From Herminiimonas sp. (GTDB taxonomy: Bacteria; Pseudomonadota; Gammaproteobacteria; Burkholderiales; Burkholderiaceae_D), in contig JAQGMR010000017.1 in assembly GCA_028292265.1 (NCBI GenBank), positions 7,855 through 71,854 of the forward strand: a DNA stretch of 64,000 nt, written 5' to 3'. The notes beneath the pieces were generated by a model, which was not told the DNA's origin, did no database searches, and was given only the letters and a program-made list of their open reading frames with translations. Shown here piece by piece: positions 17,693 through 45,319 of the stretch (position 1 is its first letter; every line of letters begins with the position of its first letter). The position numbers and the translations under genes were made by a program.

Positions 17693-17758
17693 GAATGCTC
17701 CTGTAGTGGAATTTTGTCTTGAGAACAGGCGAACTCTAGATGACGAATATGACGCGTC

Positions 17759-17777
17759 CATGACAGATCGTGACAAG
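17759..17777 (-). promoter_or_regulatory. Candidate Pho box upstream of pstS
   Basis: The minus strand reads CTTGTCACGATCTGTCATG, giving two TGTCA cores followed ~10 nt later by ATATTC (-10-like). The cores are 10 bp apart rather than the canonical 11. Confidence 0.5.
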
Positions 17778-17797
17778 CTGCCAGCGAAACTAAAGAC

Positions 17798-17815
17798 ATG
17801 TCATAAAATTGACAT
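17798..17815. promoter_or_regulatory. Pho-box-like near-palindrome in the pstS/ppk1 divergent region
   Basis: ATGTCATAAAATTGACAT contains TGTCAT and TGACAT cores 11 bp apart with an A/T spacer. It reads similarly on both strands, so it could serve pstS, ppk1 or both. Confidence 0.45.
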
Positions 17816-17871
17816 CGAAACAGCGCAAGCTCCGGAGCACTCCAAAAAACCGTGATTGAAAATCCTGCTAT

Positions 17872-19980: not shown

Positions 19981-20289
19981 ACGCACTTCTGCCTGCTGAT
20001 GCAAGCGACCGCGACGTGCAGCATGCGGTCGCCATACGTCTGCCCTCATTGCTGAGGCGACGCCAGTTCGGCATCTCCCCCGTGGTCCCTTCTTTCGCCG
20101 CAAATGGGATTTGATTGTTCTCCCAGTAATTAGCCGGTCATAAATTCCAGTAAAAATGCGACAGCTTTTGAGCGGTCGTAACCGGAGCGACTCTTATGTC
20201 CGCTCGCAGGTTATTCACCCGCTCCCTGGCAACGCCCGGGCCGAAAACCGCGCCTCGGCTCAAGCAGAACCATCACTTAAAGGATCGCA

Positions 20290-22590: not shown

Positions 22591-22690
22591 AGCCGCCTGC
22601 CGACTGTTGAAGGTCGGCATCCGCCGTCATGCAGCCGCCAACAGGCGCTGCATGACATGCTCTGCAAACTGGAAACCCAAGGCATCACCC

Positions 22691-24043: not shown

Positions 24044-24101
24044 GCTGCGAAGGCATGCGAACCGCAATGCCCTTCCCCTTACCACCAACCTTATCCAATT
24101 C

Positions 24102-24749
24102 ATGAAAAACACTATCTTCTGCATCGCCGCCGGCTTGTTGCTGGTTGGTTGCAACAATCAGCACCAGCTTAGCGAGGCAAGCCAGACAAATTTTACAACA
24201 GCGATGAACGCCTACCTCGCCGCTCGCGGCGACCTTTGCCTTGCAAAAAATCAATGGCCCATCGTTGTGACCAGGGAAGAGGCAGAACTCGGCTCAAGGA
24301 ATGCCTTGCAGATGCCGGTGCTCGAAAGACTGGGTGTCGTAGCATCTGTCGCTGCAACGGTTGAAAAAGACGCAGGGCAAGGGAAATCGAGCACGTCGGG
24401 CCGCAGCTATCAACTGACCGACGCAGGCATGAAATTCTATCTGGCTCGTGAGCCGCGCAAGCAGGCGACAGGAAGCGCGGCAACGGCACAGCATGACTTA
24501 TGCGCGGCCAGACTGACCCTTGACAAGATAGTCGCGTGGGAAGCACCCACCAAGCCGAGCCAACCGGACGCCGGTGCCGAAACCATCGTGACCTACACCT
24601 ACAAAGTCGCAGCGGCCTCATGGACCGACGACGCCGAGGCTCGCAACGTATTTCCTGTAGTGGACCGCATCGTCAAGGGCGCCGGCGTATTGCAGCTCAA
24701 GGAGCCATTTCGGCTTACTGAACACGGTTGGGAAGCGAAAGACCTTTGA
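24102..24749 (+). CDS. Hypothetical lipoprotein (215 aa)
   Basis: Track ORF trimmed to ATG 24102. Signal and lipobox are MKNTIFCIAAGLLLVGCNN. I recognise no family. Confidence 0.55.
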   Translation: MKNTIFCIAAGLLLVGCNNQHQLSEASQTNFTTAMNAYLAARGDLCLAKNQWPIVVTREEAELGSRNALQMPVLERLGVVASVAATVEKDAGQGKSSTSGRSYQLTDAGMKFYLAREPRKQATGSAATAQHDLCAARLTLDKIVAWEAPTKPSQPDAGAETIVTYTYKVAAASWTDDAEARNVFPVVDRIVKGAGVLQLKEPFRLTEHGWEAKDL

Positions 24750-24804
24750 ACTTGCTTGTCACCTTCACGGATGCAGCAGGGCTCGCATCGCTTTTGGACA
24801 CCGG

Positions 24805-25710
24805 ATGAACGCACGCATACACTTTACGCCGCAACTGAAGGACTGGATTATTCACAATGTTGACCGGGGTGTCCCGCCCGCCGCGCTGGTACACCGAATG
24901 ATCGAACAGGGTTTCGACCGCTTGGTGGCGGAAGCTCTCGTACATTCCGTTTGGTCCGCAATGGCACTCGGTACCCCGATGCCAGAAGGTGCGATCGACA
25001 CTGCGCAAATTGAGGCTGCAGAGTACCGCCAGGAGCCCACTCGACTGTCGCCAGAAAATGCGGGCTCATCGGGTGGTAGCGGCGTTCGCGTCGCGTCCTG
25101 GATGACGCGACCGGTGCTTGCCGTGGTCGACAATGTGCTCAGCTTTGAGGAATGCGATCAACTGATTGCGCTTGCCACGCGTCGGCTGGCACCGTCCACG
25201 ATTGTCGATCCCGATTCTGGATTCGACATGGCAAGCGCCAGTCGCAGCAGCGTGGGCATGTTCTTCGAGCTTGAAGAAACGGCGTTCATTTCACGCATAG
25301 ACCAGCGCGTGTCCCGGCTAATGAATCTGCCGGTGGAAAACGGTGAAGGCTTGCAGGTACTGCGCTATCCGACTGGTGGGCAAAGCGCGCCGCATTTCGA
25401 CTTCCTGATGCCCACGAACGCTGCCAACATGGCTTCGGTTGAACGCAGCGGCCAGCGCGTCAGCACACTGGTAATTTATCTCAATGATGTGCTCCAGGGC
25501 GGCGAGACGGTCTTTCCAGAAACCGGAATGGCGGTGACCCCGCGCAAAGGCTGTGCGGTGTACTTTGAATATTGCAATAGTGCGGGTCAACTGGACTCCC
25601 TTTCTCTGCATGCCGCTCTGCCGGTACAAGCAGGGGAGAAATGGGTCGCCACCAAATGGATGCGCGAGCGCAGGTTTATATCAGCGGGGAGCAGTAGAAA
25701 AGAAGCATGA
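24805..25710 (+). CDS. 2-oxoglutarate/Fe(II) oxygenase, prolyl 4-hydroxylase (P4Hc)-like
   Basis: HxD in SAPHFDF, distal His in SLHAALPV, 2OG-binding Lys/Arg region EKWVATKWMRERRF, and ~100 aa of extra N-terminal sequence. Confidence 0.85.
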   Translation: MNARIHFTPQLKDWIIHNVDRGVPPAALVHRMIEQGFDRLVAEALVHSVWSAMALGTPMPEGAIDTAQIEAAEYRQEPTRLSPENAGSSGGSGVRVASWMTRPVLAVVDNVLSFEECDQLIALATRRLAPSTIVDPDSGFDMASASRSSVGMFFELEETAFISRIDQRVSRLMNLPVENGEGLQVLRYPTGGQSAPHFDFLMPTNAANMASVERSGQRVSTLVIYLNDVLQGGETVFPETGMAVTPRKGCAVYFEYCNSAGQLDSLSLHAALPVQAGEKWVATKWMRERRFISAGSSRKEA

Positions 25711-26000
25711 TGGCCCGAAATCGCCGACCGGTCGCAATCGGACCCAAAGGATCGTGTCGACGGTGGGTCGCGTCATGTGATGGAGTTCGACGAGAATGAC
25801 CGACCGACGCCATTCGGCCTGCGGTGACCGCGTCGTCGATGTGATGGAAGAACTCTACAAATTTGCGCGGCTGACGCGCGCTATCGCGCCGTTCCTGGTG
25901 GACCAATACAGCGAGCGCAAGGCCCAAGGCGAGGCAAAAAGAAACGAATGAAGGCCCGTCTATGACGCCGCCGCTCCCAACGGGCCGTGCACCCATTCTG

Positions 26001-26029
26001 AGGTCATCGGACTGCAACCAAACCGTCAT
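26001..26029 (+). promoter_or_regulatory. Possible triple Pho-box-like repeat upstream of the PlcP-like gene
   Basis: AGGTCATcggaCTGCAACcaaaCCGTCAT gives three heptamers phased at 11 bp, matching CTGTCAT at 5/7, 4/7 and 6/7. It lies ~70 bp upstream of ATG 26099. Confidence 0.35.
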
Positions 26030-26098
26030 GAGCGCGAAGTAATCCGCCGCTAGTCTTTGCATGTCGCAACCCATCGGATGGTTCACATCGAGGACGCC

Positions 26099-27010
26099 AT
26101 GAAACCAAGAGACGGCTTTTTGACTGACATGCTTCGCGAGCCTGGCCGCACGGCGAAGCGCTCGCCACTGCGGTACCGGACTATCTGGATTTCCGATGTT
26201 CATCTCGGCACGCCGGGTTGCCAGGCGAAGCGTCTGCTGGAATTTCTTCGGGCCACGGAGTCGGAGAAGCTTTACCTGGTCGGCGACATCGTCGACGGCT
26301 GGCAACTGCGACGGCGCTGGTTCTGGGACCAGGACCACAACAATATCGTGCAGCTGGTGCTCAAGAAGGCAAAGAAGGGGACTCAGGTCATCTTCGTGCC
26401 CGGCAATCACGACGAATCAGTACGTCAGTTTATCGACCTTGACTTCGGCGGCATTCAGATACGGGACGAGCTGGTACATGTCACCGCTGACAACAGACAC
26501 ATGCTGGTGCTGCATGGGGACCGGTTTGATGGCGTGATCGCCTGCGCCAAATGGCTGGCGTATGTCGGCGACAGTCTTTACACAATGATCCTAAAGTGGA
26601 ACCAGATATTCAATTACTGGCGGGCCCGTGCCGGCCTTCCGTACTGGTCGCTCTCGCAATACCTGAAGCTGAAGGTGAAAAACGCTGTTAGCTATATCTC
26701 CTCGTTCGAGGATGCGCTGGCGGCGGAGGCGCGCAAGCGCGGGCTCGATGGCGTTATCTGCGGCCACATTCACAAGCCCGAAATCCGGGAGATCGACGGC
26801 ATTCTCTATTGCAATGACGGCGATTGGGTGGAAAGCCTTTCTGCTCTGGTCGAAGACGCGGACGGCACGCTGCGACTTGTCGCCTGGGCCGAGATAATGG
26901 CACAGGCGGACAGAGCCGCCGCGGCAAGCTCTGCCGACATGGAGTACGCGTCCGGGAACGTGGGGCGCGAGCCACAGGTCGCCACCCTCGGAAAAATGCA
27001 TCATGGCTGA
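26099..27010 (+). CDS. LpxH-class metallophosphoesterase, PlcP-like (phosphate-starvation phospholipase C candidate)
   Basis: Calcineurin-like motifs IWISDVHLGT, LYLVGDIVDGW, FVPGNHDE, LVLHGDRFD and ICGHIHKP. ATG 26099 is preceded by GAGGA. The track start at 26057 is TTG. Confidence 0.8.
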   Translation: MKPRDGFLTDMLREPGRTAKRSPLRYRTIWISDVHLGTPGCQAKRLLEFLRATESEKLYLVGDIVDGWQLRRRWFWDQDHNNIVQLVLKKAKKGTQVIFVPGNHDESVRQFIDLDFGGIQIRDELVHVTADNRHMLVLHGDRFDGVIACAKWLAYVGDSLYTMILKWNQIFNYWRARAGLPYWSLSQYLKLKVKNAVSYISSFEDALAAEARKRGLDGVICGHIHKPEIREIDGILYCNDGDWVESLSALVEDADGTLRLVAWAEIMAQADRAAAASSADMEYASGNVGREPQVATLGKMHHG

Positions 27011-28325
27011 CGCCTCGCTGGCTTCGCTGCGGCGCCAGGGCATAACCGCATGGGTTAAGGGGGCGGGCGCCACTTCATGGCTGCATTGGGGACTGGCGAA
27101 GACCGTGACCCACCGCTGTGCCCAGTCTCCTCACCCGTCTGCGCCAGAAGAATTACGCAGGGCACCGGCCGCCCGCGATACGCAGCCCCCAGGAAGGGGA
27201 CCGGTGTCAATCCTGGTCCTGAGTGCCTCGGTCGGCTCGGGCCACACAAGGGCGGCGGACGCAGTGTGCGAGGCGGCGGCACCGCGCGGCGCCGCGGTTA
27301 GCGTCACGCATGTTGACGCGCTTGGCCTGATGTCGGCGTCATTTCGGCGGGCGTATGCCGGCTGGTACCTGGCCCTGGCGGGTCGTCATCCAGACGTCTG
27401 GTCATGGCTGTATCGTGCCACCAACGATCCGGCACCGGAGAGTTGGGCCGGGCGCCTGCGCAGGCGCGTCGAGCGCTTGCATGCGCGCCGTCTGTTGCGT
27501 CAGGTCGTCGCAGCGCAACCGGACCTCGTGCTGTGCACACACTTTATGCCGGCCGAGCTATTGGCGCGTGAAGTGGTCGAGGGCCGCTTGCGCTCCCCGG
27601 TGTGGGTAGCGGTAACCGATTTCGACTTGCACCGAATGTGGGTACATGAAGGAATTTCCGGCTATTTTGCAGCGAACGAGGAAGTCGCCTATCGGATGCG
27701 GGCCCGCCATATTCCTCCAGAGCGGATTCACGTTACCGGCATACCCGTAATGCAGGACTTCCAGCGGCAATTCGACCGCCGGGCGTGCGCCCGTCGCCTT
27801 GGCATCAATCCCCAGCGAACCACGCTTCTCCTGATGGGTGGCGGTGCAGGATTCGGAACCTTGGTGGAGGTGGCAGAGCGCCTGATCCGGCTGCCGGGCG
27901 ACTTCCAGTTGTTGGTCCTTGCAGGGACTAATGGCGTTGCGCTCGACGGATTGCATCGGCTGGCAGCGCTGCATCCGGGTCGCCTGTTCGCGAGTGGCTT
28001 TACTTCGCATGTCGCCAGCTGGATGGCGTGCGCCGACCTGGTTATCACCAAGCCGGGTGGGCTGACCGTGGCCGAGTCACTGGCGATGGGCCTGCCCATG
28101 ATCGTGCACGGTGCGATTCCCGGACAAGAGGAGCGCAACGCCGACTTTCTGCTGGAGCATGGGGCTGCGCTCAAGGCGACGGACGGCGTGACCCTCGAAT
28201 ACCGGGTGCGCTATCTGATGGACCATCCCGAGGCGTTGGCTTCCATGCGCCGCCGCGCTCGCGCTCTTGGCCGGAGCGATTCGGCCCGTGCAGTGCTGCG
28301 GGTGTTAATTGATACGGTCACCTGA
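27003..28325 (+). CDS. GT28 MGDG-synthase / UgtP-like diacylglycerol glycosyltransferase
   Basis: N-terminal motif ILVLSASVGSGHTRAADAV and C-terminal UDP-sugar motif VITKPGGLTVAESLAMGLPMIV...PGQEERNADFL. The start overlaps the preceding stop by 8 nt. The ~68-aa N-terminal leader is uncertain, with a possible GTG start near 27201. Confidence 0.8.
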   Translation: MADASLASLRRQGITAWVKGAGATSWLHWGLAKTVTHRCAQSPHPSAPEELRRAPAARDTQPPGRGPVSILVLSASVGSGHTRAADAVCEAAAPRGAAVSVTHVDALGLMSASFRRAYAGWYLALAGRHPDVWSWLYRATNDPAPESWAGRLRRRVERLHARRLLRQVVAAQPDLVLCTHFMPAELLAREVVEGRLRSPVWVAVTDFDLHRMWVHEGISGYFAANEEVAYRMRARHIPPERIHVTGIPVMQDFQRQFDRRACARRLGINPQRTTLLLMGGGAGFGTLVEVAERLIRLPGDFQLLVLAGTNGVALDGLHRLAALHPGRLFASGFTSHVASWMACADLVITKPGGLTVAESLAMGLPMIVHGAIPGQEERNADFLLEHGAALKATDGVTLEYRVRYLMDHPEALASMRRRARALGRSDSARAVLRVLIDTVT

Positions 28326-31630: not shown

Positions 31631-33094
31631 TTACGATTCGCCGCTCAGCCGGGACGAAAACTCGACGCCGATTTCCCGCCAGTGTTCCCGTTCCTTCTCC
31701 AGCCAATAGGACAGGGTGGGATGGTCCACGACCCATTCCCGCTGGATTTCAACGTCGATCCTGGTCTTCATTTTTACGCGCACGCCTTCAAGTTTGGCAT
31801 CGAGGCGTGAATGCATGAACAGGACCGCCAGACGCATGGCCAGGATGGCCCGGTTCAGGTCGGCGTTGGCCAGCGCGTCGCTTACCTTGCGCAGGTTGCC
31901 CTTTTGCCCGAGTACCAGCGTGCCCATCATCCGCTGTTCACGCGTCGTGAAGCCCGAGAGATCCGCATTCTCAACAAGGTAGGCGCCGTGCTTGTGATAG
32001 CCACTATGCGACACCGACATCCCGACCTCATGTAGCAGCGCGCTCCAGTACAAATGGCGCAATAGATTGTCGGAGCTCGGCTTCAATTGCAGAAACAGTG
32101 TTCGTGCCATGTCCCCGACCCGATTTGCCCTGGTTTCGTCAACGTGAAACCGCTGAAGGAATTCCCGTACTGCAATCTCGCGGCGATCCCGGCGGGTTGA
32201 GCGCAGCGTCAGGTCGGTTAACACGCCCATGCGCAAGCCGGCCTCTATGGGGGTTATCGACTGTATGCCAAGCTGTTGCATCAAGCCGATCAGGACCGCA
32301 AGGCCGCCCATGATGACGCCGGCCCGGTCCGGTTTCATGCCCGCCAGTTCTACTTTCGATGCATTTCCGAAGCCGATCAGGCGGTCGCGCAAGGCGTCGA
32401 CGCTATGTCGGGAGACTGTACCGTCGCCGATGCCATTTTTTGCGATGGCGTCCGCAATGGCCCGGACGGTGCCCGATGATCCATACGCCTGGCTCCACTT
32501 GCTCGCCGAATAGTCAGCGGCAACGTCCTCGAAGCGGCTGCACGCCGAGAGGACTGCGGCGTTAAAGGTCGATGCATCGATTCGTCCCTGCGGGAAGAAG
32601 CCGATGCTTTGGCTAACCGTGCCAATTGTGAAGGATTCGACCTTCTCAATCTCGGACCCAACCCCCAGGATCAGTTCGGTTGATCCACCGCCAATATCGA
32701 TGACCAGCCTGCGCTCCTGGGAAGCGGGCAGCGCGTCTGACACGCCGAGATAGATCAGGCGCCCTTCCTCCTCGCCGGAGATGATTTCAATCGGATAACC
32801 GATCGCCTGCTCCGCCTGCGGCAGGAACATGGCCCGGTTGTGTGCAATGCGAAGCGTGTTTGTCGCAACCACCCGGACGCTGGTTACCGGAAATTCAGCA
32901 AGGATTGTAGAGAACCGGGCGAGGCAGTCTATCGCGCTGCGCATGGCCTGCGGCGTGAGGTTGCCTTTTTCATCCAGGCCGGCGCCTAGCCTGATCGGGT
33001 CCCGTGCCGACTTCACAATGCGGATTTTTCCGCCCGCCAGTTCGGCAATGTGCAGGCGAAAACTGTTGGAGCCAAGGTCAACTGCAGCAAGCAT
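31631..33094 (-). CDS. ppx: Exopolyphosphatase Ppx/GppA
   Basis: N-terminal MLAAVDLGSNSFRLHIAE (ASKHA fold) and a C-terminal HD-like region LLHEVGMSVSHSGYHKHGAYLVENADL. Confidence 0.93.
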   Translation of the reverse strand: MLAAVDLGSNSFRLHIAELAGGKIRIVKSARDPIRLGAGLDEKGNLTPQAMRSAIDCLARFSTILAEFPVTSVRVVATNTLRIAHNRAMFLPQAEQAIGYPIEIISGEEEGRLIYLGVSDALPASQERRLVIDIGGGSTELILGVGSEIEKVESFTIGTVSQSIGFFPQGRIDASTFNAAVLSACSRFEDVAADYSASKWSQAYGSSGTVRAIADAIAKNGIGDGTVSRHSVDALRDRLIGFGNASKVELAGMKPDRAGVIMGGLAVLIGLMQQLGIQSITPIEAGLRMGVLTDLTLRSTRRDRREIAVREFLQRFHVDETRANRVGDMARTLFLQLKPSSDNLLRHLYWSALLHEVGMSVSHSGYHKHGAYLVENADLSGFTTREQRMMGTLVLGQKGNLRKVSDALANADLNRAILAMRLAVLFMHSRLDAKLEGVRVKMKTRIDVEIQREWVVDHPTLSYWLEKEREHWREIGVEFSSRLSGES

Positions 33095-33551
33095 TCATTC
33101 GTCTCAGTGATCCGCGGTAGGGCACGCAGGTATAGGCAGAGTATCGCCTGTTAAGCATGGACAGTAAATTCTCGATGACGGAAATTGCTGCACCGCCAGA
33201 AGGTGGAGAGACCTCCACCTGACAGGCGGGAGGAACTGTCGCTGTCTCGGTTCCCCATGAATCGCCCGCCACGATCAGGTGCTTTGATTTGATATTCGTC
33301 AAACATCAGGCACGTTCATTTGAACTGTTCCTGTCTTTCCGCTTGGCAGCATAGGAAAATGCTCGTCCGGATTTTCCCCTTGGAAGGACCCTGTTTGCCA
33401 AGTGCCAACATTTACGAGCCTCAACGATTCCTATATCCTCGAGCGACTATTGTCCGCACTGCCGCATGCCGTTTAAGCAAGTAAAACCAGCGGGATGCAT
33501 ACAGCGCCTGCCGTTGAAGCGAAGCCGCCTTAAGGCCCACGCACCGGGGCC

Positions 33552-36500
33552 ATGACGGCAGCTTGCCGCGGATTGAACCAATTTATTGTCGGGAGACATT
33601 TTTCGATGGAACAGCTTCTTGCGCCACCGTCCGCTTCGGCCAACAACCCGGGTAGCGCTAACCAGATGGACATGCAGGCCCTGCTTGTCGCCTTGCAGGC
33701 CTACCGCAACGGCGATTTTTCGAAGCGGATGCCGGCTGACTGGACCGGCCTGTCCGGCAAGATCGCCGATACGCTCAATGAAATCATCGATATGTCGAGC
33801 AGCACCATCACCGAATTCGAGCGTGTCGCGCGGCTAGTCGGCAAGCAGGGCAAGGTCGGCGAGCGGATCGAACTGCCGATGATGCGTGGGTCATGGGAAA
33901 AGCTGGTCGATTCCAGCAATGCGCTGGCCAATGACCTGGTCAGCCCCATGAATGAAATGATCAGCGTTATTTCCGCGGTAGCAGATGGCGATCTGAGCCC
34001 TCAGGTGCCAATGGAAATCGACGGTCTGAAGTTGAAGGGACAGTTTCTTAAATCGGCCGAGATCGTCAACACCATGGTGGCGCGACTCGGCTCCTTCGCC
34101 TCGGAGGTCACGCGCGTGGCGCGCGAGGTCGGCACCGAAGGCATTTTGGGTGGCCAGGCCGAAGTCAAGGGCGTGTCCGGTACGTGGAAAGACCTGACCG
34201 ATTCCGTGAACGGGATGGCGGCGAACCTCACCACGCAGATGCGCAACATCGCCTATGTGACGACGGCGGTGGCAAAGGGCGACCTTGGCAAGACCATTAC
34301 GGTTGAGGCCAAGGGCGAGATCCTTGAATTGAAAAACACCATCAACACGATGGTGGACCAGCTCTCTTCCTTCGCCGCCGAAGTGACGCGCGTGGCGCGC
34401 GAAGTCGGTACCGACGGCAAGCTCGGCGGCCAGGCAGAAGTGGCGGGCGTGTCCGGCACCTGGCGCGACCTGACCGAGTCGGTCAACGGCATGGCGGCCA
34501 ACCTCACCACGCAGGTCCGAAACATCGCTGATGTGACGACCGCGGTGGCAAACGGCGACCTGTCGCGCAAGATCACGGCGGAAGCCAAGGGCGAGATCCT
34601 GCAGCTGAAAGAAACCGTCAACACCATGGTGGACCAGCTCTCCACTTTCGGCGCCGAGGTAACCCGTGTGGCGCGCGAGGTTGGTACCGAAGGAAAGTTG
34701 GGCGGACAGGCCGAGGTGCGCGGCGTGTCCGGCACCTGGCGTGACCTGACGGAATCGGTGAACGGCATGGCGGCCAACTTGACCAACCAGGTGCGAAACA
34801 TCGCGCAGGTGACGACCGCTGTTGCGAATGGCGACCTCGGCAAGAAAATTACGGTCGATGCGAAGGGCGAGATTTTCGAACTCAAGAGCACCATCAACAT
34901 CATGGTGGACCAGCTTTCGTCCTTCGCCGCCGAGGTAACACGCGTCGCGCGCGAAGTTGGTACCGAAGGAAAACTGGGTGGCCAGGCGGAAGTGAAAGGC
35001 GTATCTGGCACGTGGAAGGACTTGACCGAGTCGGTCAATGGCATGGCAGCCAACCTCACGACGCAGGTGCGTAACATCGCCGACGTCACAACCGCCGTGG
35101 CAAACGGCGACCTCGGACGAAAAATTACAGCAGAAGCCAAAGGCGAAATTCTTGAGCTCAAGGACACCATCAACACCATGGTGGACCAGCTCTCTACCTT
35201 CGCCGCCGAGGTCACCCGCGTGGCGCGTGAAGTGGGTACCGAAGGAAAGCTCGGCGGGCAAGCCGAGGTGAAGGAAGTGTCGGGCACGTGGCGCGACTTG
35301 ACGGAATCCGTCAACGGCATGGCGTCCAACCTGACCAACCAGGTGCGAAACATTGCACAGGTGACGACCGCCGTGGCGCGGGGCGATCTTGGCAAGAAGA
35401 TTACCGTGGAAGCCAAGGGCGAGATTCTCGAACTCAAGAGCACCGTGAACATTATGGTGGACCAGCTCTCCTCCTTCGCCGCCGAAGTGACGCGGGTGGC
35501 ACGCGAGGTGGGTACCGACGGCAAGCTTGGTGGCCAGGCCGAAGTATCCGGCGTGTCCGGCACGTGGAAAGACTTGACCGACTCCGTGAATGGCATGGCG
35601 GCCAACCTAACCAGCCAGGTCCGCAACATTGCGGACGTGACGACCGCCGTGGCGAACGGCGACCTCTCCCGCAAGATTACCGCCGAAGCCAAGGGCGAGA
35701 TTTTACAGCTGAAGGAAACTATCAACACCATGGTGGACCAGCTCTCCACCTTCGCCGACGAGGTCACCCGGGTGGCGCGTGAGGTGGGTACCGACGGCAA
35801 GCTGGGCGGCCAAGCGAAAGTCACTGGCGTGGGCGGCACGTGGAAAGATTTGACCGACTCGGTCAACAGCATGGCGGCCAACCTTACGAACCAGGTGCGT
35901 AACATTGCCGACGTGACGACCGCGGTGGCGAAGGGCGATCTCGGCCGCAAGATTACGGTCGAAGCCAAGGGCGAGATCATGGAGTTGAAGAACACCATCA
36001 ACACGATGGTGGACCAGCTCTCGACCTTTGCCGACGAAGTCACGCGTGTGGCACGCGAGGTAGGAACGGAAGGCAAGCTGGGTGGCCAGGGCCAGGTGCC
36101 CGGCGTGGCTGGAACCTGGAAGGACTTGACCGACTCGGTCAACATGATGGCCTCCAACCTCACGTCGCAGGTGCGAAACATCGCGCAAGTGACGACGGCG
36201 GTTGCGAACGGCGACCTGACCAAGAAAATTACGGTCGATGCGCGCGGCGAGATCATGGAGCTGAAAAACACCATCAACATCATGGTGGATCAGCTCTCCA
36301 CCTTCGGCGCTGAGGTAACGCGCGTAGCGCGTGAGGTGGGTACTGAAGGAAAGCTGGGCGGCCAGGCCGAAGTGGCTGGCGTTTCCGGCACATGGAAAGA
36401 CTTGACCGACTCGGTCAACGGCATGGCGTCCAACCTCACCGCCCAGGTCCGGAACGTGGCCGAGGTGACGATTGCCGTGGCCAACGGCGACCTCTCGCGC

Positions 36501-39500
36501 AAGATCACGGTGGACGTGCGCGGTGAATTCTTGCAGTTGAAGGAAACCATCAACACGATGGTGGACCAATTGCGTTCCTTCGCTTCCGAAGTAACACGGG
36601 TGGCGCGTGAGGTCGGTACGGAAGGCAAGCTCGGCGGCCAGGCCTATGTGACAGGCGTGGCGGGAACGTGGAAGGACTTGACCGACTCGGTCAACATGAT
36701 GGCGTCGAACCTGACCGACCAGGTGCGTAACATCGCGCAGGTGACGACCGCCGTGGCAAACGGCGATCTTGGCAAGAAGGTGACGGTGGACGTGAAGGGA
36801 GAAATCCTGGAACTCAAGAGCACCGTGAACATTATGGTGGACCAGTTGAATTCCTTCGCCGCCGAGGTAACGCGGGTGGCGCGCGAAGTTGGCACCGAAG
36901 GGAAGCTGGGCGGACAGGCCGAAGTGCGTGGCGTGTCCGGAACCTGGAAAGACCTGACCGACAACGTGAACTTCATGGCGGCCAACCTGACCAACCAGGT
37001 CCGCGGTATAGCCAAGGTGGTGACCGCCGTTGCAAATGGCGACATGAAGAAGAAGTTGACGGTGGAAGCCAAAGGCGAAATCGCCGAACTGGCCGACACG
37101 ATCAATAACATGACCGACACGCTGGCCCTGTTCTCGGACCAGGTAACGTCAGTGGCCCGCGAGGTGGGCGTCGAAGGCAAGCTCGGTGGACAGGCCAATG
37201 TGCCGGGCGCCGCCGGCACCTGGAAAGACCTGACCGACAACGTTAATGGCCTCGCCGCCAACCTGACCAACCAGGTGCGCGCGATCGCCGACGTGGCAAC
37301 CGCCGTGACCAAGGGCGACCTGACTCGTAACGTGCAAGTCGATGCAAAGGGCGAAGTCGCCGAACTGAAAGACAACGTGAACGAGATGATCCGCAACCTG
37401 CGCGAAACCACGCGCCAGAATGCGGACCAGGATTGGCTCAAGACCAACCTCGCCAAATTTACGCGCCTGTTGCAGGGACAGCGTGATCTGGCGGCCGTGT
37501 CGCAGATGGTGCTGTCCGAACTGGCGCCCCTGATCAACGCGCAGCACGGCGTGTTCTACATGATGGATGAAAGCCAGATGCACAACCCGCATCTGCGTTT
37601 GCTGTCGGCCTATGCGCATGGCGCCAACGTCGCCAAGGAATGGCGCCTGCGCGAAGGACTGATCGGCCAGTGCGCCTTTGAGAAGAAGCGCATTCTGCTG
37701 TCGAACGTCCCTTCCGGTTATGTATCGATTACGTCGGGCCTCGGCGCCGCCGTGCCGCTCAACCTGATCGTGCTGCCGATCCTGTTCGAGAACAAGGTCA
37801 AGGCGGTGGTGGAGATGGCGTCGTTCACCATGTACAGCGCCATCCACCAAACCTTCCTCGACCAGCTCGGCGAATCGATTGGTATTGTGTTGAACACGAT
37901 CGAAGCCAACATGCGGACCGAGGAGCTGCTGAAGCAGTCACAGTCGCTCGCGCAAGAGCTGCAGGCGCAGCAGGAAGAGCTGCGCCAGACCAACGAGGAA
38001 CTGGAAGACAAGGCCGGCCTGCTGGAAGAGCAGAAGGCCGAGGTTGAGCGCAAGAACCGCGAGGTTGAAATCACCAAGCTGTCGCTGGAAGAAAAGGCGG
38101 AACAACTGACGCTGACGTCCAAATACAAGTCGGAATTCCTGTCCAGCATGTCGCATGAGTTGCGTACGCCATTGAACAGTTTGCTGATCCTGGCGCAGCA
38201 ATTATCAGAAAACGGCGACAAGAACCTGACAGCACGCCAGGTTGATTACGCCCGAACCATACTTGGTTCCGGACGCGACCTGCTTGGCCTGATCAATGAA
38301 ATCCTCGACCTTTCCAAAATCGAGTCTGGCACCGTCACGCTGGACTTCACCGAAGTCGGCTTTAATGGTCTGCACGATCAAATCGAACGCACGTTCCGTC
38401 CAATGGCGGATAGCCACGGGCTCGGGTTCGCGGTCGAACTTGGCGCGGGCCTGCCGGGCTCAACGTGGACTGACGAAAAACGCCTGCTGCAGGTGGTGAA
38501 GAATCTACTTTCGAACGCGTTCAAATTTACCGAGCATGGTGAAGTGCGGCTTTGCATTCAGCCTGCCCTGGCCGGTTGGAGCGTGGACCACACCGGCCTG
38601 AACAATGCCGATACCGTCATTTCCTTCGTGGTCAGCGATACCGGCATTGGCGTTTCGGCCGACAAGCAAAAGCTGATTTTTGAAGCGTTCCAGCAAGCAG
38701 ATACGGGCACATCGCGCAAGTACGGCGGGACCGGACTTGGGCTGTCGATCAGTCGCGAACTGGCCCGCCTGCTAGGCGGAGAACTGCGGCTAGTATTGTC
38801 GGAACTTAACCGCGGAAGCACCTTCGCGCTATTCGTACCGTTGCGCACGGTAGAGGCTGCGCATCCACTTCCGCTTCCGTCAAGCGATGACGTTGAACGT
38901 CGCCATTTCCAGCGCGACCTCACGCCCCAGCCGATCCAGGCGCTGGATGACCGCGACAGTGTCCATGCCGGAGACCGGGTCGTACTGATCGTCGAAAACG
39001 ACGCTCGCTTTGCCGGCATTCTGCTCGGCGTGGCCCGCAAGAACAATATGCTTGGTGTGATTTGCGCTCGGGGCAACGACGTTCCGGAAATGGTGGAACG
39101 CTTCTCCCCAATCGCCATCACGCTCGAAATGCACTTGCCTGACGTAGATGGATGGACTGTGCTGGAGCGCTTGAAGCGCAACCCCATGACCCGTCACATT
39201 CCAGTCCAGGTGATGTCGGCGGACGACGACCGCCTGCGCGGCCTGCGCTACGGTGCGCTGGAGTACCTGGTCAAACCTGTAACCGAAGTTGAGATTAATA
39301 GTGTGTTGGCCGGTATTGCGAGTTTCGCGCAGCGCAGAACCAGGGAACTGCTGCTTGTCGCCAGCGATGAATCGCAGCGTATGGCGCTTGAGGAAATGCT
39401 CGCCAGTCCGGACCTGAAGATCAAGCCGGTCGCAAGTGGAAAGGAAGCGCTGGCTGCGCTGAAAAAGCGCCGGTTCGATTGCATGGTTCTCGACCCGATG

Positions 39501-40145
39501 CTGTCTGATATGGCCGCAACCGGTCTGCTCAAGGAGATCGACGGGCAAGAATCTGCGCGGCGCATGCCCATCATTCTGTACGGACTTGGCAACGCGCCCC
39601 GGAACGAGCAGGACGCCATCCGCTCCTTCGGCAACCGCGGCCTGCTGCGTGAAGTGCAGTCGCCCGAGCGCCTGCTCGATGAAACCGCGCTGCTGCTGCA
39701 TCGCGAGGTCAGCAGTCTCCCCAAAGAGCAGCGCATGTTGATCGAGGACTTGTACGAAGGCTCGGCCAGCCTGGAAGGAAAGCGGGTGCTGGTTGTCGAC
39801 GACGACGTTCGCAATATCTTCGCGCTAACCAGCGTCCTGGAGCGCAACAAGATGGAGGTAACGTCGGCCGAGAATGGCAGGACGGCAATTGAACTGTTGC
39901 ATCAGTTTTCAGATACGGACATTGTCCTCATGGACATCATGATGCCGGAGATGGATGGCTTCGAAACCATGCGACGCATTCGCAAGTTGAAGCAGTTCGA
40001 GAACCTTCCCATGATTGCCCTGACCGCCAAGGCGATGAAGGGTGACCGCGAGAAGTGCATCGAAGCGGGCGCCTCGGACTACGTTAGCAAGCCAGTCGAT
40101 ACGGACCGTCTGCTGTCGCTGATGCGCGCATGGCTTTACAGGTGA
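33552..40145 (+). CDS. Giant soluble hybrid sensor histidine kinase: poly-HAMP array (~27 HAMPs), GAF, coiled coil, HisKA, HATPase_c and three receiver domains
   Basis: 2197 aa with no TM segment. The tandem 92-aa units read like [95 protein letters not shown]-like region follows (~aa 1300-1445). The H-box is [12 protein letters not shown] (His codon 38154-38156) and the G2 box is [17 protein letters not shown] domains sit at ~aa 1809-1925, 1931-2050 and 2077-2197. An alternative start is ATG 33606. Confidence 0.95.
34101..37412 (+). repeat. Twelve head-to-tail 276-bp (92-codon) in-frame tandem repeats, each encoding a di-HAMP unit
   Basis: Counted directly. Unit 1 starts at codon 184 ([11 protein letters not shown]) and unit 12 ends at codon 1287 (NLRETT), so 12 x 276 = 3312 bp exactly. 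A degenerate 96-aa unit and a lone HAMP precede it (aa ~44-183). Confidence 0.95.
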
Positions 40146-40149
40146 CTCC

Positions 40150-41343
40150 ATGGGACACGCCATGAAAATCGAACATCAGGAAGTGCCCGTCTTCACGAAC
40201 ACGCGCGTGCACCAGGCGCCGGTCGCGCCAGATGGCGTGCCAGCCTCTGTGCTGGTGGTCGACGACAATCCGGCCAAGCAAAAAGCCATTGTCGCCGTCG
40301 TATCGCGCCTTGGCGTCCAGGTTACCACTGCCAACTCCGGGCGCGACGCCCTGCGCCTGCTGCTCAAGCAGGACTTCGCCGTCGTTCTGCTCGACGTCAA
40401 GATGCCCAACATTGATGGCTTCGAAACCGCAACGCTGATCCACGGCCGACCGCGCTCGGCCCACACGCCTGTCATCTTCATTACGGCGGAGGCCGATTCG
40501 GACTCCGAGCGTTTTCTCGGGTACACGATGGGTGCGGTCGACTATATCTTCTCGCCTATCGTTCCCGAGGTGCTGTGCGCCAAGGTACGCGTCTTCGTCG
40601 ACCTTTGGTACATGCAGCGAAAGCTGATACTCCAAACCGACGAACTGCGTGAATCGAAGGTGCTGTTGCAGCAACTCGCGTCCCACCAGGAGATCATCAA
40701 GGAAGAGGAACGCAAGCGGATTGCCCGCGAAATCCACGACGAGCTTGGACAAAACCTGCTTGCTTTGCGGATCGACGCGTCCATGCTGCATGCCCGCACG
40801 GGCAGCATGCATCCGAAGCTGAATGAAAAGGCAGAGTACGCGCTCAAGCAGATCGACGCGACCATCAAAAGCGTGCGAGCCATCATCAACGACCTGCGCC
40901 CGCCGGTACTGGACCTCGGCTTGCAAGCGGCGATCGAATGGCAGCTCAAGGAGTTTCAGCGCCGCAGCAACATACCCTGCCAGCTACAGGTGCAGAGTGA
41001 AGACTTCGACCGCTGTCTCGATGAAAAGCGGGCGACCGCCCTGTTCCGCATTCTTCAGGAATCGCTGACCAATGTAACGCGCCATGCCAAGGCGAGCGCT
41101 GTGCGCATTGAAGTTAGCCGCGACGCGACACGCCTCTACATGAACATCAGCGACAACGGTATTGGAATGCAGCAGAACGGCACGAAGCGCGGCAACTCCT
41201 TTGGACTGCAAGGTATCAAGGAACGGGTCCGCATGCTGGATGGAGAACTGAAGCTGGAAAGCGACCCTGGCTGCGGCACGACGCTCAAGGTTTCGATACC
41301 GCTGGACCTGCTGCCGACCGGCCCGTCCGAGTCGCGGGTCTGA
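40150..41343 (+). CDS. Receiver-fused HisKA_3 (NarX/DesK-type) histidine kinase
   Basis: It starts 4 nt after the stop of the giant kinase. REC motifs are VLVVDDNPAKQ and VLLDVKMPNIDGFE. The HisKA_3 H-box is EERKRIAREIHDELGQNL and the ATPase G-box is GNSFGLQGIKERV. There is no TM segment. Confidence 0.9.
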   Translation: MGHAMKIEHQEVPVFTNTRVHQAPVAPDGVPASVLVVDDNPAKQKAIVAVVSRLGVQVTTANSGRDALRLLLKQDFAVVLLDVKMPNIDGFETATLIHGRPRSAHTPVIFITAEADSDSERFLGYTMGAVDYIFSPIVPEVLCAKVRVFVDLWYMQRKLILQTDELRESKVLLQQLASHQEIIKEEERKRIAREIHDELGQNLLALRIDASMLHARTGSMHPKLNEKAEYALKQIDATIKSVRAIINDLRPPVLDLGLQAAIEWQLKEFQRRSNIPCQLQVQSEDFDRCLDEKRATALFRILQESLTNVTRHAKASAVRIEVSRDATRLYMNISDNGIGMQQNGTKRGNSFGLQGIKERVRMLDGELKLESDPGCGTTLKVSIPLDLLPTGPSESRV

Positions 41344-44181: not shown

Positions 44182-44368
44182 CGTTTCCTGATCTGCCTGC
44201 CATTGCCACCCATTGAATGACGGGTCTGAATTCGTGTCTCAGTCACGGTCCCACGGTGCTCTGGGGCGGCAGCATCTTGACGCCCGACAAAACACAAGCG
44301 TTGCCGCGGAGCGAAGATCGACGCTGCAAGCCTATGCCCATTTCCTTCGCACAAGCTCGGAGAACCCC

Positions 44369-45319
44369 ATGCCCGCACGATCCCTTGCCGACCTCTCGCT
44401 TTCCTTTGGTCTGGTGTCGATTCCGGTCAAGCTATTCTCAGCGACCCAGTCGAAGGACGGTGTTTCATTCAATCTGATCCACCGCCAATGCGGTTCCCGC
44501 ATGCGTCAACAATACGTCTGCATCCGGGAAGACGTGGTGGTGCCGCGTGAGGACATGGTCAAGGGTTACCAGTTTTCGAAAGACCAGTATGTCATTTTCG
44601 AGCCCGAAGAGCTGAAGGCACTGGAAGAAAAAGGCACGCACTCGATCGACATCGTGGCATTTGTGCCGGCCGGATCAATCGACCCGATCTATTACGACAA
44701 GGCCTACTACCTTGCGCCAGACAAGCGCGGGGACCGGCCCTATTCGCTGCTGCTGGAGGGCATGAAGCAAACCGGTCGCGTTGCACTGGCGCGCTGGGCA
44801 TGGCGAGGCAAGTCGTACACGGTCCAGGTGCGTCCTTCCCCGGAAGGCGGCCTGGTGCTGCAGCAATTGCTTTATGCCGATGAAGTGCGCTCTATGAATG
44901 AACTCGATATCCCGGATACCGAGGTCAAGAAGCCCGAGCTTGCTCTCGCCGTGCAGTTGATCGACCAGATCGCCCGCGACAGCTTCGATCCGCGCGAATA
45001 CGAAGACGAAGTCAAGAAGCGCATGGAGGTGGCGGTTGAGCAGAAAGTCGCAGGCCAGGAAATCTCGATTTCCGATGAGCCGGAGGCGGAAGGCGGCAAG
45101 GTGATTGACCTTATGGCGGCACTCAAGGCAAGCCTGGCCAAGAAATCGGGTGGCGGAACCAGCGCGGCCGGTGCCACCGCTACGGAACCGAAGGCAAAAA
45201 AATCTGCCCGGCGAGCCACACCGCGCGAGGAAACCGAGGCACCTGCTGAGCCGAAAAAGGCAACGGGAACGCACGGTGCGTCCAAGCCTGCTGCGAAAAA
45301 AACGCGCGCGAAAAAATAA
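44369..45319 (+). CDS. ku: Non-homologous end-joining protein Ku with a Lys-rich C-terminal tail
   Basis: Track ORF trimmed to ATG 44369, which is preceded by GGAGA. Motifs are LSFGLVSIPVKLFSAT and KAYYLAPDKRGDRPYSLL. The basic tail reads KKSARRATPREETEAPAEPKKATGTHGASKPAAKKTRAKK. Confidence 0.9.
   Translation: MPARSLADLSLSFGLVSIPVKLFSATQSKDGVSFNLIHRQCGSRMRQQYVCIREDVVVPREDMVKGYQFSKDQYVIFEPEELKALEEKGTHSIDIVAFVPAGSIDPIYYDKAYYLAPDKRGDRPYSLLLEGMKQTGRVALARWAWRGKSYTVQVRPSPEGGLVLQQLLYADEVRSMNELDIPDTEVKKPELALAVQLIDQIARDSFDPREYEDEVKKRMEVAVEQKVAGQEISISDEPEAEGGKVIDLMAALKASLAKKSGGGTSAAGATATEPKAKKSARRATPREETEAPAEPKKATGTHGASKPAAKKTRAKK

What the first reader, a model, noticed from the sequence alone, without database searches (positions are those of the whole stretch)
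33552..40145. Soluble 2197-aa hybrid kinase whose sensory region is ~27 consecutive HAMP domains and nothing else
From about residue 44 to residue 1287 I find only back-to-back HAMP-like units, alternating a canonical type ([47 protein letters not shown]) with a divergent type ([42 protein letters not shown]). I see no transmembrane helix, signal peptide, PAS/Cache domain or other recognisable input upstream of the array. A single GAF-like domain, a long coiled coil, the kinase core and three receivers follow. Poly-HAMP arrays are known (the 3+2 HAMPs of Aer2, and bioinformatic surveys reporting chains of tens). To my knowledge no protein with such a long array has an assigned signal or mechanism. 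If the units stack as in Aer2, the array would form a rod well over 100 nm long. That raises the question of whether the rod itself is the sensor (temperature, crowding, mechanical or ruler function). The gene sits divergent from ppx at the edge of the Pho/polyP cluster.
Basis: partly seen in the sequence, partly recalled or inferred. Interest (0 to 1): 0.72.

Follow-up and report, generated by a model that had tools for sequence, protein, structure and literature searches.

The report
AskA/AskB-type poly-HAMP hybrid histidine kinase
The gene really does encode a soluble signalling kinase with 27 stacked HAMP domains, but it is an ordinary member of a large, already described and crystallised family (the AskA/AskB "poly-HAMP" kinases), so it is genuine but not new.

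Summary
ORF 33552-40145 (+) encodes a cytoplasmic hybrid histidine kinase. Its N-terminal ~1250 residues are 27 back-to-back HAMP domains: one head HAMP plus 13 modules of a non-canonical and a canonical HAMP. A GAF domain follows, then a ~105-residue helix, the kinase core and three receiver-like domains. The true start is probably M19 (33606), giving 2179 aa.

This is the kinase-associated poly-HAMP family described for Myxococcus xanthus AskA (21 HAMPs) and AskB (31 HAMPs). The first six units align collinearly with the AskA crystal construct 9trk (E = 1.4e-109). Family hallmarks are present: the HAMP3 proline kink and hairpin insertion, and the conserved Trp. More than 8000 homologues exist across many phyla. 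Among the best 120, arrays have 25-37 units, most often 31.

The ppx/Pho adjacency is not conserved in 86-88% identical relatives. A downstream REC-histidine-kinase partner is conserved. The array is not an assembly artefact. It would be about 63 nm long, not over 100 nm. The input signal remains unknown, as the literature already states.

Verdict: a new member of a known kind, of low to moderate interest.

The parts
33552..40145 (+). Longest ORF of the poly-HAMP hybrid histidine kinase (2197 aa). The probable true start is the ATG at 33606 (M19), giving 2179 aa.
   Evidence: P0003 is 100% identical and starts at MEQLL. Homologue N-termini start at the same point.
33669..33797 (+). HAMP1, the head HAMP ('D1' type), about residues 40-82. 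It is preceded only by a short, non-conserved, uncharged tail.
   Evidence: Collinear alignment with AskA HAMP1 in 9trk. AF2 helix-connector-helix with pLDDT 88-92. No Pfam hit when tested alone.
33798..33938 (+). HAMP2, the first non-canonical (C-type) HAMP, with the conserved Trp115.
   Evidence: C-HMM, E = 2e-06. W97 (M19 numbering) is invariant in 30 homologues.
33939..34091 (+). HAMP3, a canonical HAMP with the Pro132 kink in its input helix and a 5-residue insertion in the connector that forms a beta-hairpin.
   Evidence: P114 (M19 numbering) is invariant. AF2 DSSP shows the hairpin at residues 137-142 of the model. The feature is described for AskA-like arrays in PMC13446029.
34092..37403 (+). 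Twelve 92-aa (276-bp) di-HAMP modules, each a non-canonical plus a canonical HAMP (HAMP4 to HAMP27).
   Evidence: TRF. Unit list and HMM hits with E of 1e-26 to 1e-32 per unit. DNA identity between copies is 64-86%.
37482..37892 (+). GAF domain.
   Evidence: Pfam GAF_2, E = 9.6e-16. AF2 model pLDDT 89.6. Foldseek best matches are the PtsP GAF, fRMsr and the cAMP-binding Lcd1 GAF.
37839..38153 (+). One continuous ~105-residue helix (signalling-helix coiled coil, rich in E and Q) running from the last GAF helix to the H-box.
   Evidence: AF2 DSSP H146-250 of the 1285-1535 segment. Composition: 20 E and 11 Q in 106 residues.
38127..38846 (+). Kinase core: HisKA/DHp with H1535, plus HATPase_c.
   Evidence: Pfam HisKA E = 8.6e-17 and HATPase_c E = 8.7e-24. 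H-box SHELRTP.
38973..39317 (+). REC1, a degenerate receiver. The phospho-site is Glu (E1859) and the acidic pair is E-N. The family consensus has Asp at this site.
   Evidence: Alignment with CheY. Family consensus 'AITLDI'.
39336..39701 (+). REC2, a degenerate receiver. D1981 is kept, but the acidic pair, the Thr and the Lys are lost (A, S, G, E).
39786..40121 (+). REC3, a canonical receiver (DD, D2128, T, K).
   Evidence: Pfam best stretch 2079-2190..
40150..41343 (+). Partner kinase, REC-HisKA_3-HATPase_c (397 aa). It starts 4 nt after the stop codon of the large gene, so the two are probably co-transcribed.
   Evidence: Pfam. The same gene follows the orthologue in relatives 86-88% identical. 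Its REC belongs to a family found downstream of poly-HAMP kinases in 40 of 51 loci.

Best explanation
The gene encodes a cytoplasmic hybrid histidine kinase of the kinase-associated poly-HAMP family, whose prototypes are Myxococcus xanthus AskA and AskB.

Shown here. There is a head HAMP followed by 13 modules of non-canonical plus canonical HAMP, 27 in all. Then come a GAF domain, one long signalling helix, DHp/CA with H1535, two degenerate receivers and one canonical receiver (D2128). A REC-HisKA_3 kinase is encoded 4 nt downstream.

Inferred from the AskA crystal structures and the family literature. The protein should be a parallel homodimer in which the 27 four-helix bundles stack coaxially. 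Each output helix continues into the next input helix, giving a rod of about 63 nm. Canonical and non-canonical units prefer opposite helix-rotation states (x-da versus da-x). A change of packing anywhere in the array, or at the GAF domain, would then be relayed as alternating axial rotation to the signalling helix. That sets the DHp between kinase and phosphatase states.

The likely phosphoryl route is H1535 to D2128 of REC3. REC3 then docks or exchanges phosphate with the receiver of the downstream partner kinase, as AskA REC3 binds the AskC receiver. The partner would drive an unidentified NarL-type regulator.

The input is not known. My best guess is an intracellular physico-chemical or small-molecule cue sensed by the GAF domain, by the array itself, or by both. 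Osmolyte or stress-type cues are the model, as for M. xanthus (glycerol, ambruticin) and fungal group III kinases. The array would act mainly as a length-tunable modulator.
For: Domain calls are, and the absence of a TM segment. The self-HMM gives a strict (CD)x13 pattern.

The N-terminal residues 2-299 (M19 numbering) align without rearrangement to residues 31-327 of the AskA six-HAMP crystal construct 9trk, E = 1.4e-109. A four-unit internal segment hits 9trk at E = 3.7e-77 and Aer2 at E = 8.9e-04.

Family hallmarks from PMC13446029 are present. The head HAMP comes first. The HAMP3 proline is invariant, with a connector insertion and hairpin. Trp occurs in every non-canonical unit. Cap glycines are invariant. 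GAF, DHp, CA and REC follow.

Foldseek places the AF2 head model on the Aer2 poly-HAMP structures first.

Homologues are very numerous: more than 8000 at E <= 1e-20, at 61-69% identity across Acidobacteriota, Planctomycetota, Cyanobacteria, Gemmatimonadota, Chloroflexota and Myxococcota. Unit counts are 25-37 in the top 120, with mode 31.

The partner REC kinase is conserved in close relatives. A REC of the same family (E of 1e-35 to 1e-47) lies downstream in 40 of 51 loci, including the M. xanthus askA locus. The AskA REC3 to AskC REC interaction and the Ask phenotypes are reported in PMC7643160.
Against: Nothing contradicts family membership. The mechanistic steps are inferred, not shown.

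Dimerisation and stacking were not modelled here. Only monomer AF2 was available, and pLDDT was below 50 in the repeated part. No HPt domain or cognate regulator is visible in the window. The partner receiver lacks the conserved Lys (FSP instead of FKP).

Equivalence of the downstream gene to AskC could not be tested, because the AskC sequence was never obtained. Most homologous loci carry a CheR-type methyltransferase between the two kinases (36 of 51), and this window lacks one. Regulation may therefore differ from the majority type. No signal is known for any bacterial poly-HAMP array itself; ambruticin bound AskC, not AskA or AskB.
Confidence: 0.85

Rival explanations
1. The rod itself is the primary sensor of a physical variable such as osmolarity or water activity, temperature, crowding or mechanical strain. 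It has no ligand-binding input, and array length sets sensitivity.
For: No domain lies upstream of the array, and the N-terminal tail is short, variable and uncharged. Fungal group III kinases use their HAMP repeats in osmosensing, and M. xanthus Ask mutants respond to glycerol. The family paper proposes conformational tension in kinase arrays and tuning by array length. All 13 modules are positionally conserved in relatives 86-96% identical, so length is under constraint.
Against: A conserved GAF domain sits between the array and the kinase in every family member, which offers a conventional input. No experiment on any bacterial array shows physical sensing. Array length varies from about 9 to 37 units between orthologues, which is hard to reconcile with a fixed ruler.
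Confidence: 0.25
2. The GAF domain is the real sensor and binds a cytoplasmic small molecule. The poly-HAMP array is a modulator or oligomerisation and scaffolding rod that tunes gain or localisation.
For: The GAF fold is confidently predicted (pLDDT 89.6). Its nearest structures are small-molecule-binding GAFs: PtsP, fRMsr, cAMP-Lcd1 and PDE5/6. Many GAF columns are invariant across phyla. The family paper labels the GAF domain 'sensory'. RsbK-type kinases with a HAMP-GAF-S-helix-HK-REC core work this way and have other N-terminal sensors.
Against: Identity to any liganded GAF is only 12-19%, so no ligand can be named. Strong purifying selection on 1250 residues of array, at 61-69% identity across phyla, seems excessive for a passive spacer.
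Confidence: 0.3
3. The kinase is part of the phosphate/polyphosphate (Pho) regulon and regulates or responds to ppx and polyP metabolism, because it lies divergent from ppx.
For: ppx (31631-33094, -) is the divergent neighbour. ppk, a pstS-like gene and phosphoesterases lie 5-17 kb upstream.
Against: In the 86% identical relative (L084) and the 88% identical relative, the kinase, its partner and the TPR gene are kept, but ppx is absent from the neighbourhood. No Pho-box-like site within 3 mismatches lies in 33095-33551, whereas such sites occur next to pstS/ppk. Distant homologues have unrelated neighbours.
Confidence: 0.03
4. The long array is an assembly artefact: a collapsed or expanded repeat.
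For: Repeat arrays are hard to assemble. Twenty-five of the 83 related loci examined end inside the array.
Against: The copies are only 64-86% identical at the DNA level, and the longest exact repeat is 36 bp. Three independently assembled relatives (96, 88 and 86% identity) have the same 13 modules in one-to-one positional correspondence. The reading frame is intact over 6.6 kb.
Confidence: 0.02
5. The array is a DNA-binding or nucleoid-associated scaffold, as reported in vitro for AskB and for the FrzCD tail.
For: Weak, repeated Pfam matches to SpoIIID and HTH_6 overlap the HAMPs. These are the same matches used to argue DNA binding for AskA and AskB. AskB shifted PmrpC DNA in vitro.
Against: Those Pfam matches have no individually significant stretch. 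The array carries a net charge of -28 per chain. The N-terminal tail has no Arg/Lys cluster, unlike some homologues such as P0059 and P0101.
Confidence: 0.05

Closest known systems
Myxococcus xanthus AskA (MXAN_0712, 21 HAMPs; PDB 9trj, 9trk) and AskB (MXAN_6735, 31 HAMPs): kinase-associated poly-HAMP arrays (PMC13446029, PMC7643160)
   Same: Soluble protein. Head HAMP followed by non-canonical/canonical di-HAMP modules of 92 aa. HAMP3 proline kink and hairpin insertion, Trp at each canonical-to-non-canonical interface, then GAF, DHp/CA and several receivers. The N-terminus aligns to the crystal construct at E = 1.4e-109. A REC-containing partner kinase is encoded downstream.
   Different: 27 units rather than 21 or 31. 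The host is a betaproteobacterium (Herminiimonas MAG). No CheR gene lies between kinase and partner, whereas the askA locus has one. The partner kinase is of the HisKA_3 type. REC1 carries Glu at the phospho-site. No developmental programme or ambruticin link is known for this organism.
Fungal group III hybrid histidine kinases (Nik1/Os-1/Drk1/TcsC)
   Same: Cytoplasmic hybrid kinases whose N-terminal region is a poly-HAMP array of alternating unit types. They are implicated in osmosensing and in a fungicide-triggered switch from kinase to phosphatase. This comparison rests on the literature; no sequence comparison was run here.
   Different: Per the literature cited, the fungal arrays are shorter than the extended bacterial ones, and output goes through the HOG pathway. 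The fungal domain architecture (receiver number, presence or absence of GAF) was not checked here.
Pseudomonas aeruginosa Aer2 multi-HAMP module (PDB 3LNR, 4I3M, 4I44)
   Same: Coaxially stacked HAMPs alternating canonical and divergent conformations. These are the best structural matches of the AF2 head model, with weak sequence similarity (E = 8.9e-04).
   Different: Aer2 has 3+2 diverse HAMPs interrupted by a haem-PAS sensor, and it ends in a methyl-accepting chemoreceptor domain. Its divergent unit belongs to a different sequence group, group A.
Bacillus cereus RsbK with RsbM (CHASE3-HAMP-GAF-S-helix-HK-REC, methylated by a CheR-like enzyme; PMC4574943)
   Same: The C-terminal HAMP-GAF-signalling-helix-DHp/CA-REC core has the same order. 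Many poly-HAMP kinase loci, though not this one, carry an adjacent CheR-type gene.
   Different: RsbK has a membrane-anchored CHASE3 sensor and a single HAMP. This window has no CheR. Sequence relatedness to RsbK was not tested.

Membership tests
Kinase-associated poly-HAMP array kinases (AskA/AskB type) | Soluble protein with no sensor domain or TM segment upstream of the array, and a D1-type HAMP in first position. | tested here: met
   Hydropathy. No Pfam hit in residues 1-97. Residues 23-64 (M19 numbering) align with AskA HAMP1 in 9trk. The N-terminal tails of homologues are short and variable.
Kinase-associated poly-HAMP array kinases (AskA/AskB type) | Strictly alternating non-canonical (C) and canonical (D2) HAMPs in di-HAMP modules of constant length. 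| tested here: met
   13 C-D pairs with a 92-aa period. TRF period of 276 bp.
Kinase-associated poly-HAMP array kinases (AskA/AskB type) | The third HAMP has a proline kink in the input helix and a connector insertion that forms a beta-hairpin. | tested here: met
   P132 is invariant in 30 homologues. The connector is 18 residues, against 13-14 in other canonical units, with an E-E hairpin in the AF2 model.
Kinase-associated poly-HAMP array kinases (AskA/AskB type) | Conserved Trp at the start of the output helix of each non-canonical HAMP, and conserved cap glycines at the junctions. | tested here: met
   GTW or GSW occurs in all 13 C units. W and G columns are invariant or nearly so.
Kinase-associated poly-HAMP array kinases (AskA/AskB type) | The array is followed by GAF, DHp, CA and one or more receivers. 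| tested here: met
   Pfam GAF_2, HisKA, HATPase_c and 3 x Response_reg.
Kinase-associated poly-HAMP array kinases (AskA/AskB type) | Parallel homodimer of coaxially stacked four-helix bundles. | not testable with these tools
   Only monomer AF2 was available. The feature is inferred from 9trk homology and the Aer2 fold matches.
Ask-type multikinase module (AskB with AskC) | A second, REC-containing histidine kinase encoded immediately downstream, which interacts through its receiver. | tested here: inconclusive
   A REC-HisKA_3-HATPase_c gene lies 4 nt downstream. Its REC is homologous (E = 5e-38) to the REC protein downstream of M. xanthus askA. The AskC sequence was not obtained and no interaction can be tested.
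RsbK/RsbM-type methylatable hybrid kinases | An adjacent CheR-like methyltransferase that methylates the signalling helix. | tested here: not met
   tblastn with a locus-linked CheR finds nothing in the 64-kb window. CheR is present in 36 of 51 homologous loci.
RsbK/RsbM-type methylatable hybrid kinases | A HAMP-GAF-S-helix-HK-REC core. | tested here: met
   Domain order and the 105-residue helix. Sequence comparison with RsbK itself was not done.
Aer2-type multi-HAMP chemoreceptors | A haem-PAS domain between HAMP groups and a C-terminal methyl-accepting signalling domain. | tested here: not met
   No PAS or MCPsignal hit. The NCBIfam Aer2 model scores 352 bits against a cutoff of 1200.
Fungal group III hybrid histidine kinases | Eukaryotic kinase with a short poly-HAMP array that signals through the HOG pathway. 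| not tested
   No fungal sequence was compared. The relationship is taken from PMC13446029 and PMC7643160.

The most novel reading that the evidence does not exclude
This locus could be a naturally minimal, CheR-less two-gene version (poly-HAMP kinase plus REC-HisKA_3 kinase) of a widespread three-gene cassette. That cassette (poly-HAMP kinase, CheR methyltransferase, REC kinase) is not mentioned in the poly-HAMP structure paper. In the cassette, the kinase would be adapted by glutamate methylation like a chemoreceptor, and the stacked HAMP rod would itself sense a physical cue. The window would then show the sensor working without adaptation.
Probability: 0.12. Interest if true: 0.6.

Novelty: new member of a known kind. 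Interest (0 to 1): 0.25.

Why it matters
What poly-HAMP arrays sense is still an open question, and the 2026 structural paper says so explicitly. This instance does not make the question more tractable than the existing M. xanthus and fungal systems. It comes from an uncultured Herminiimonas MAG, has a typical array length and shows every family hallmark.

The comparative by-products are more useful. The first is a strongly conserved partner-receiver family. The second is a frequent CheR gene between the two kinases, which points to methylation-based adaptation of these kinases.

Tried and rejected
- Pho regulation. A Pho-box scan found 7 matches against 3.6 expected, none in 33095-33551. ppx is absent from the neighbourhood in close relatives. 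Rejected.
- Promoter and terminator consensus scans around the operon were uninformative: 0 promoters, and only weak terminator-like sites.
- Missed upstream exon or sensor. The ORF is bounded by an in-frame stop just upstream, the 457-bp gap to ppx holds no ORF, and homologues start at M19. Rejected.
- Assembly artefact. Rejected on copy divergence and on positional orthology in independent assemblies.
- AskC architecture. I looked in the Nat Commun supplement, but it exists only as a figure, not text. The single genome-contig scan, seeded with the AskA head, returned askA loci but not askB/askC. AskC equivalence therefore stays untested.
- Sequence search of the GAF and S-helix region against PDB hit only a generic histidine-kinase H-box region. 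Foldseek gave generic GAFs with no ligand inference.
- The monomer AF2 model of HAMP1-6 was confident only for HAMP1-3. Its Foldseek matches are weak (E about 1e-3), but they are the Aer2 poly-HAMP entries.
- Pfam matches to SpoIIID, HTH_6, ATG17, Laminin_II and others are summed weak repeat matches with no significant single stretch. I treated them as spurious.
- A first count of downstream CheR and REC genes missed genes whose ORFs overlap the kinase stop. It was corrected.


Full report
**1. What is in the sequence**

It is bounded upstream by a stop codon. The 457-bp gap to the divergent ppx gene contains no further coding potential for it.

The 100% identical database protein starts at the second ATG. 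This is P0003, 2179 aa, 'hybrid sensor histidine kinase/response regulator', MAG Herminiimonas sp.. All homologues I inspected begin at the equivalent residue. That ATG (33606) has GGGAGA 9 nt upstream. The product is therefore most probably 2179 aa.

**2. The repeat array**

Tandem Repeats Finder reports a 276-bp period, 11.8 copies, 76% matches, at 34066-37321. Laid out in register, the protein shows twelve 92-residue modules from residue 181 to 1284. Each is a 44-residue unit ([43 protein letters not shown]) followed by a 48-residue unit (NLTxQVRNIAxVTTAVAxGDLxxKITVxAKGEIxELKxTINxMVDQL).

HMMs built from these two unit types find a thirteenth, more divergent pair at residues 88-179. Nowhere does the strict C-D alternation break. 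Upstream of that pair lies one more helix-connector-helix unit (about residues 40-82). The count of 27 is therefore right.

Pfam needs care. It reports 13 HAMP_2 and 12 HAMP stretches, but both models fall on the same canonical units. The HAMP_2 model simply includes the preceding helix (sequence 6). Two non-canonical units tested alone, and the N-terminal 97 residues containing the head unit, get no Pfam hit at E <= 1.

Solved structures settle the matter. Residues 2-299 (M19 numbering) align in one collinear block, E = 1.4e-109, with residues 31-327 of PDB 9trk. That entry is the six-HAMP fragment of M. xanthus AskA fused to GCN4. An internal four-unit segment hits 9trk at E = 3.7e-77 and Aer2 at E = 8.9e-04. 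In those crystals both unit types are four-helix HAMP bundles (PMC13446029).

**3. The rest of the protein**

There is no TM segment. The highest 19-residue hydropathy in the first 120 residues is 0.47, and the only peak above 1.6 lies in the GAF beta-sheet core.

Pfam finds GAF_2 (1311-1447), HisKA (1526-1593), HATPase_c (1640-1765) and three Response_reg stretches. An AF2 model of residues 1285-1535, built with 28 homologues, has pLDDT 89.6. It shows a GAF fold whose last helix runs on for 105 residues to the H-box. The nearest solved folds are generic small-molecule GAFs at 12-19% identity: PtsP, fRMsr, cAMP-bound Lcd1 and PDE5/6. No ligand can be named.

Aligned with CheY, only REC3 has the full pocket (DD, D2128, T, K). 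REC1 has E-N and Glu1859 at the phospho-site, whereas the family consensus has Asp there. REC2 keeps D1981 but has lost the acidic pair, the Thr and the Lys.

**4. Artefact?**

The twelve modules are only 64-86% identical at the DNA level. The longest exact repeat in the array is 36 bp. Synonymous codon differences (1942) outnumber non-synonymous ones (1320), so these are old copies under purifying selection.

Three independently assembled relatives (96, 88 and 86% identical) have the same 13 modules. Every module finds its best match at the same position. An assembly artefact is very unlikely.

Modules 2, 4 and 6 (92-95% identical) and modules 3 and 5 (91%) resemble each other more than their neighbours (82-87%). 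Part of the array therefore grew by duplication of a four-HAMP, 552-bp block.

**5. Context**

ppx is indeed the divergent neighbour. ppk, a pstS-like gene, phosphoesterases and a metallophosphoesterase/glycosyltransferase pair lie further upstream.

The link is not conserved. In the 86% relative (L084) and the 88% relative, the kinase, the downstream kinase and the TPR gene are retained, but ppx is absent from the neighbourhood. No Pho-box-like site within three mismatches lies upstream of the kinase, although such sites occur at pstS/ppk.

What is conserved is the gene 4 nt downstream, 40150-41343, a REC-HisKA_3-HATPase_c kinase. I examined 51 homologous loci with a complete kinase and at least 2.5 kb of downstream sequence. 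A receiver of the same family (E of 1e-35 to 1e-47 against the window's, far stronger than generic REC-REC matches) lies downstream in 40. A CheR-type methyltransferase is present in 36. The order kinase-CheR-REC protein occurs in 31, including the M. xanthus askA locus and Microcoleus. The window belongs to the minority (7 of 51) with the partner but no CheR. No CheR is detectable anywhere in the 64 kb.

**6. What it is**

The family has been described. Coles et al. (Protein Sci 2026; PMC13446029) define 'kinase-associated poly-HAMP arrays'. These have a D1 head HAMP followed by non-canonical C and canonical D2 units, upstream of GAF, DHp/CA and one or more receivers. They occur in many bacterial phyla, fungi and Amoebozoa. 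AskA has 21 HAMPs and AskB has 31.

The diagnostic details they list are all present here:
- a proline kink and a hairpin-forming insertion in HAMP3. P132 is invariant in 30 homologues, and the hairpin appears in the AF2 model;
- a Trp at each canonical-to-non-canonical interface;
- invariant cap glycines.

Marcos-Torres et al. (Nat Commun 2020; PMC7643160) showed four things. AskA or AskB is required for fruiting-body development. AskC, encoded directly downstream of askB, confers sensitivity to ambruticin and glycerol and binds ambruticin. AskA REC3 binds the AskC receiver. AskB binds PmrpC DNA in vitro.

The family is very large. The species-representative genome collection yields 448 relatives with AskA-head patterns alone. 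The 162-residue head finds 2207 50%-identity representatives at E <= 1e-10.

Among the top 120 homologues the arrays have 25-37 units, with mode 31. In the genome loci, complete genes carry about 9-37. Twenty-seven units is unremarkable.

**7. How it most likely works**

Shown here: the domain order, the phospho-sites, the conserved partner and homology to a solved stacked-HAMP structure.

Inferred: the protein is a parallel dimer whose 27 bundles stack coaxially. AF2 secondary structure gives continuous helices of 30-33 residues, each shared between neighbouring HAMPs. That implies about 15.5 residues, or about 2.3 nm, per HAMP. The array would be roughly 63 nm long, and the whole molecule roughly 80-85 nm once the 105-residue helix is added. 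This is long, but not 'well over 100 nm'.

Following the published model, canonical and non-canonical units favour opposite rotation states, so a perturbation propagates as alternating axial rotation. It would then pass through the GAF domain and signalling helix to set the kinase/phosphatase balance at H1535. Phosphate would go to D2128, and REC3 would communicate with the partner's receiver.

The input is unknown. The array has no Cys or His and carries a net charge of -28. The tail has no basic cluster. These points argue against thiol modification of the array and against non-specific DNA binding in this protein. I rank 'GAF ligand plus modulating array' and 'array as physical sensor' as comparably plausible, and the Pho and artefact ideas as essentially excluded.

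**8. Novelty and verdict**

The object, however, is a typical member of a known, structurally characterised and very widespread family.

Novelty: a new member of a known kind. Interest: about 0.25.

The most interesting by-product is the frequent CheR gene between poly-HAMP kinases and their REC partners. It parallels RsbK/RsbM of B. cereus (PMC4574943) and is not mentioned in the poly-HAMP structure paper. It lies outside this window.

Noticed in passing
L005 15736-16704 (M. xanthus askA locus); L056 15862-16782 (Microcoleus); L003 14269-15096: A CheR-type methyltransferase gene lies directly downstream of the poly-HAMP kinase in 36 of 51 homologous loci, usually followed by the REC-partner gene (order kinase-CheR-REC in 31). 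This suggests RsbK/RsbM-like methylation of these kinases. The 2026 poly-HAMP paper does not mention it. The window itself has no CheR.
   Followed up: partly
window 40150-41343: The receiver of the downstream REC-HisKA_3 kinase belongs to a tightly conserved partner-REC family (LLVDD..ALEA..SG.EAL..LL..FA.ILLDV.MP.MDGFETA..IR...TP..F.T...Y..GAVD..KP). In the window protein the conserved Lys is Ser (FSP instead of FKP).
   Followed up: partly
window 38973-39317 (REC1): REC1 has Glu at the phospho-acceptor position (E1859), where the family consensus has Asp (AITLDI). This may be a phosphomimetic or locked pseudo-receiver specific to this clade.
   Followed up: no
window 34368-35747 (modules 2-6): Alternate di-HAMP modules are more alike (modules 2, 4 and 6 at 92-95% aa; modules 3 and 5 at 91%) than adjacent ones (82-87%). 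This indicates past duplication of a four-HAMP, 552-bp block.
   Followed up: partly
window 33813-37403 compared with P0120 and P0033: In distant homologues (31 HAMPs) only the first and the last two modules are positional orthologues of the window's. Internal modules match several positions, so the ends of the array are conserved while the middle turns over.
   Followed up: partly
window 33552-40145 compared with P0001-P0120: Identity is unusually high (61-69% over about 2200 aa) between Betaproteobacteria, Acidobacteriota, Planctomycetota, Ignavibacteria and Actinomycetota homologues. This suggests very strong constraint, horizontal spread, or both.
   Followed up: no
window 16649-28325: A phosphate-starvation style cluster: pstS-like binding protein, ppk, a phosphoesterase-family protein, a metallophosphoesterase and an MGDG-synthase-like glycosyltransferase (possible lipid remodelling). 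Pho-box-like sites lie at 17749-17815 and 20124-20141.
   Followed up: partly
L007, L010, L017, L019-L021, L024-L026 and others (25 of the 83 related loci examined): Many MAG contigs end inside the poly-HAMP array, so short-read assemblies often break there. Copy numbers from such contigs are unreliable.
   Followed up: no
window 33552-37403 (Pfam): Repeated weak matches sum to apparently significant whole-protein Pfam hits (SpoIIID 2e-14, ATG17_like 3e-13, Laminin_II, HTH_6), yet none has a significant single stretch. The SpoIIID and HTH_6 matches are the same ones used in the literature to argue DNA binding by AskA and AskB.
   Followed up: partly
window 44213-45319: A Ku-domain protein (PF02735, E = 8e-52) is encoded about 4 kb downstream, which may indicate a bacterial NHEJ locus.
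   Followed up: no
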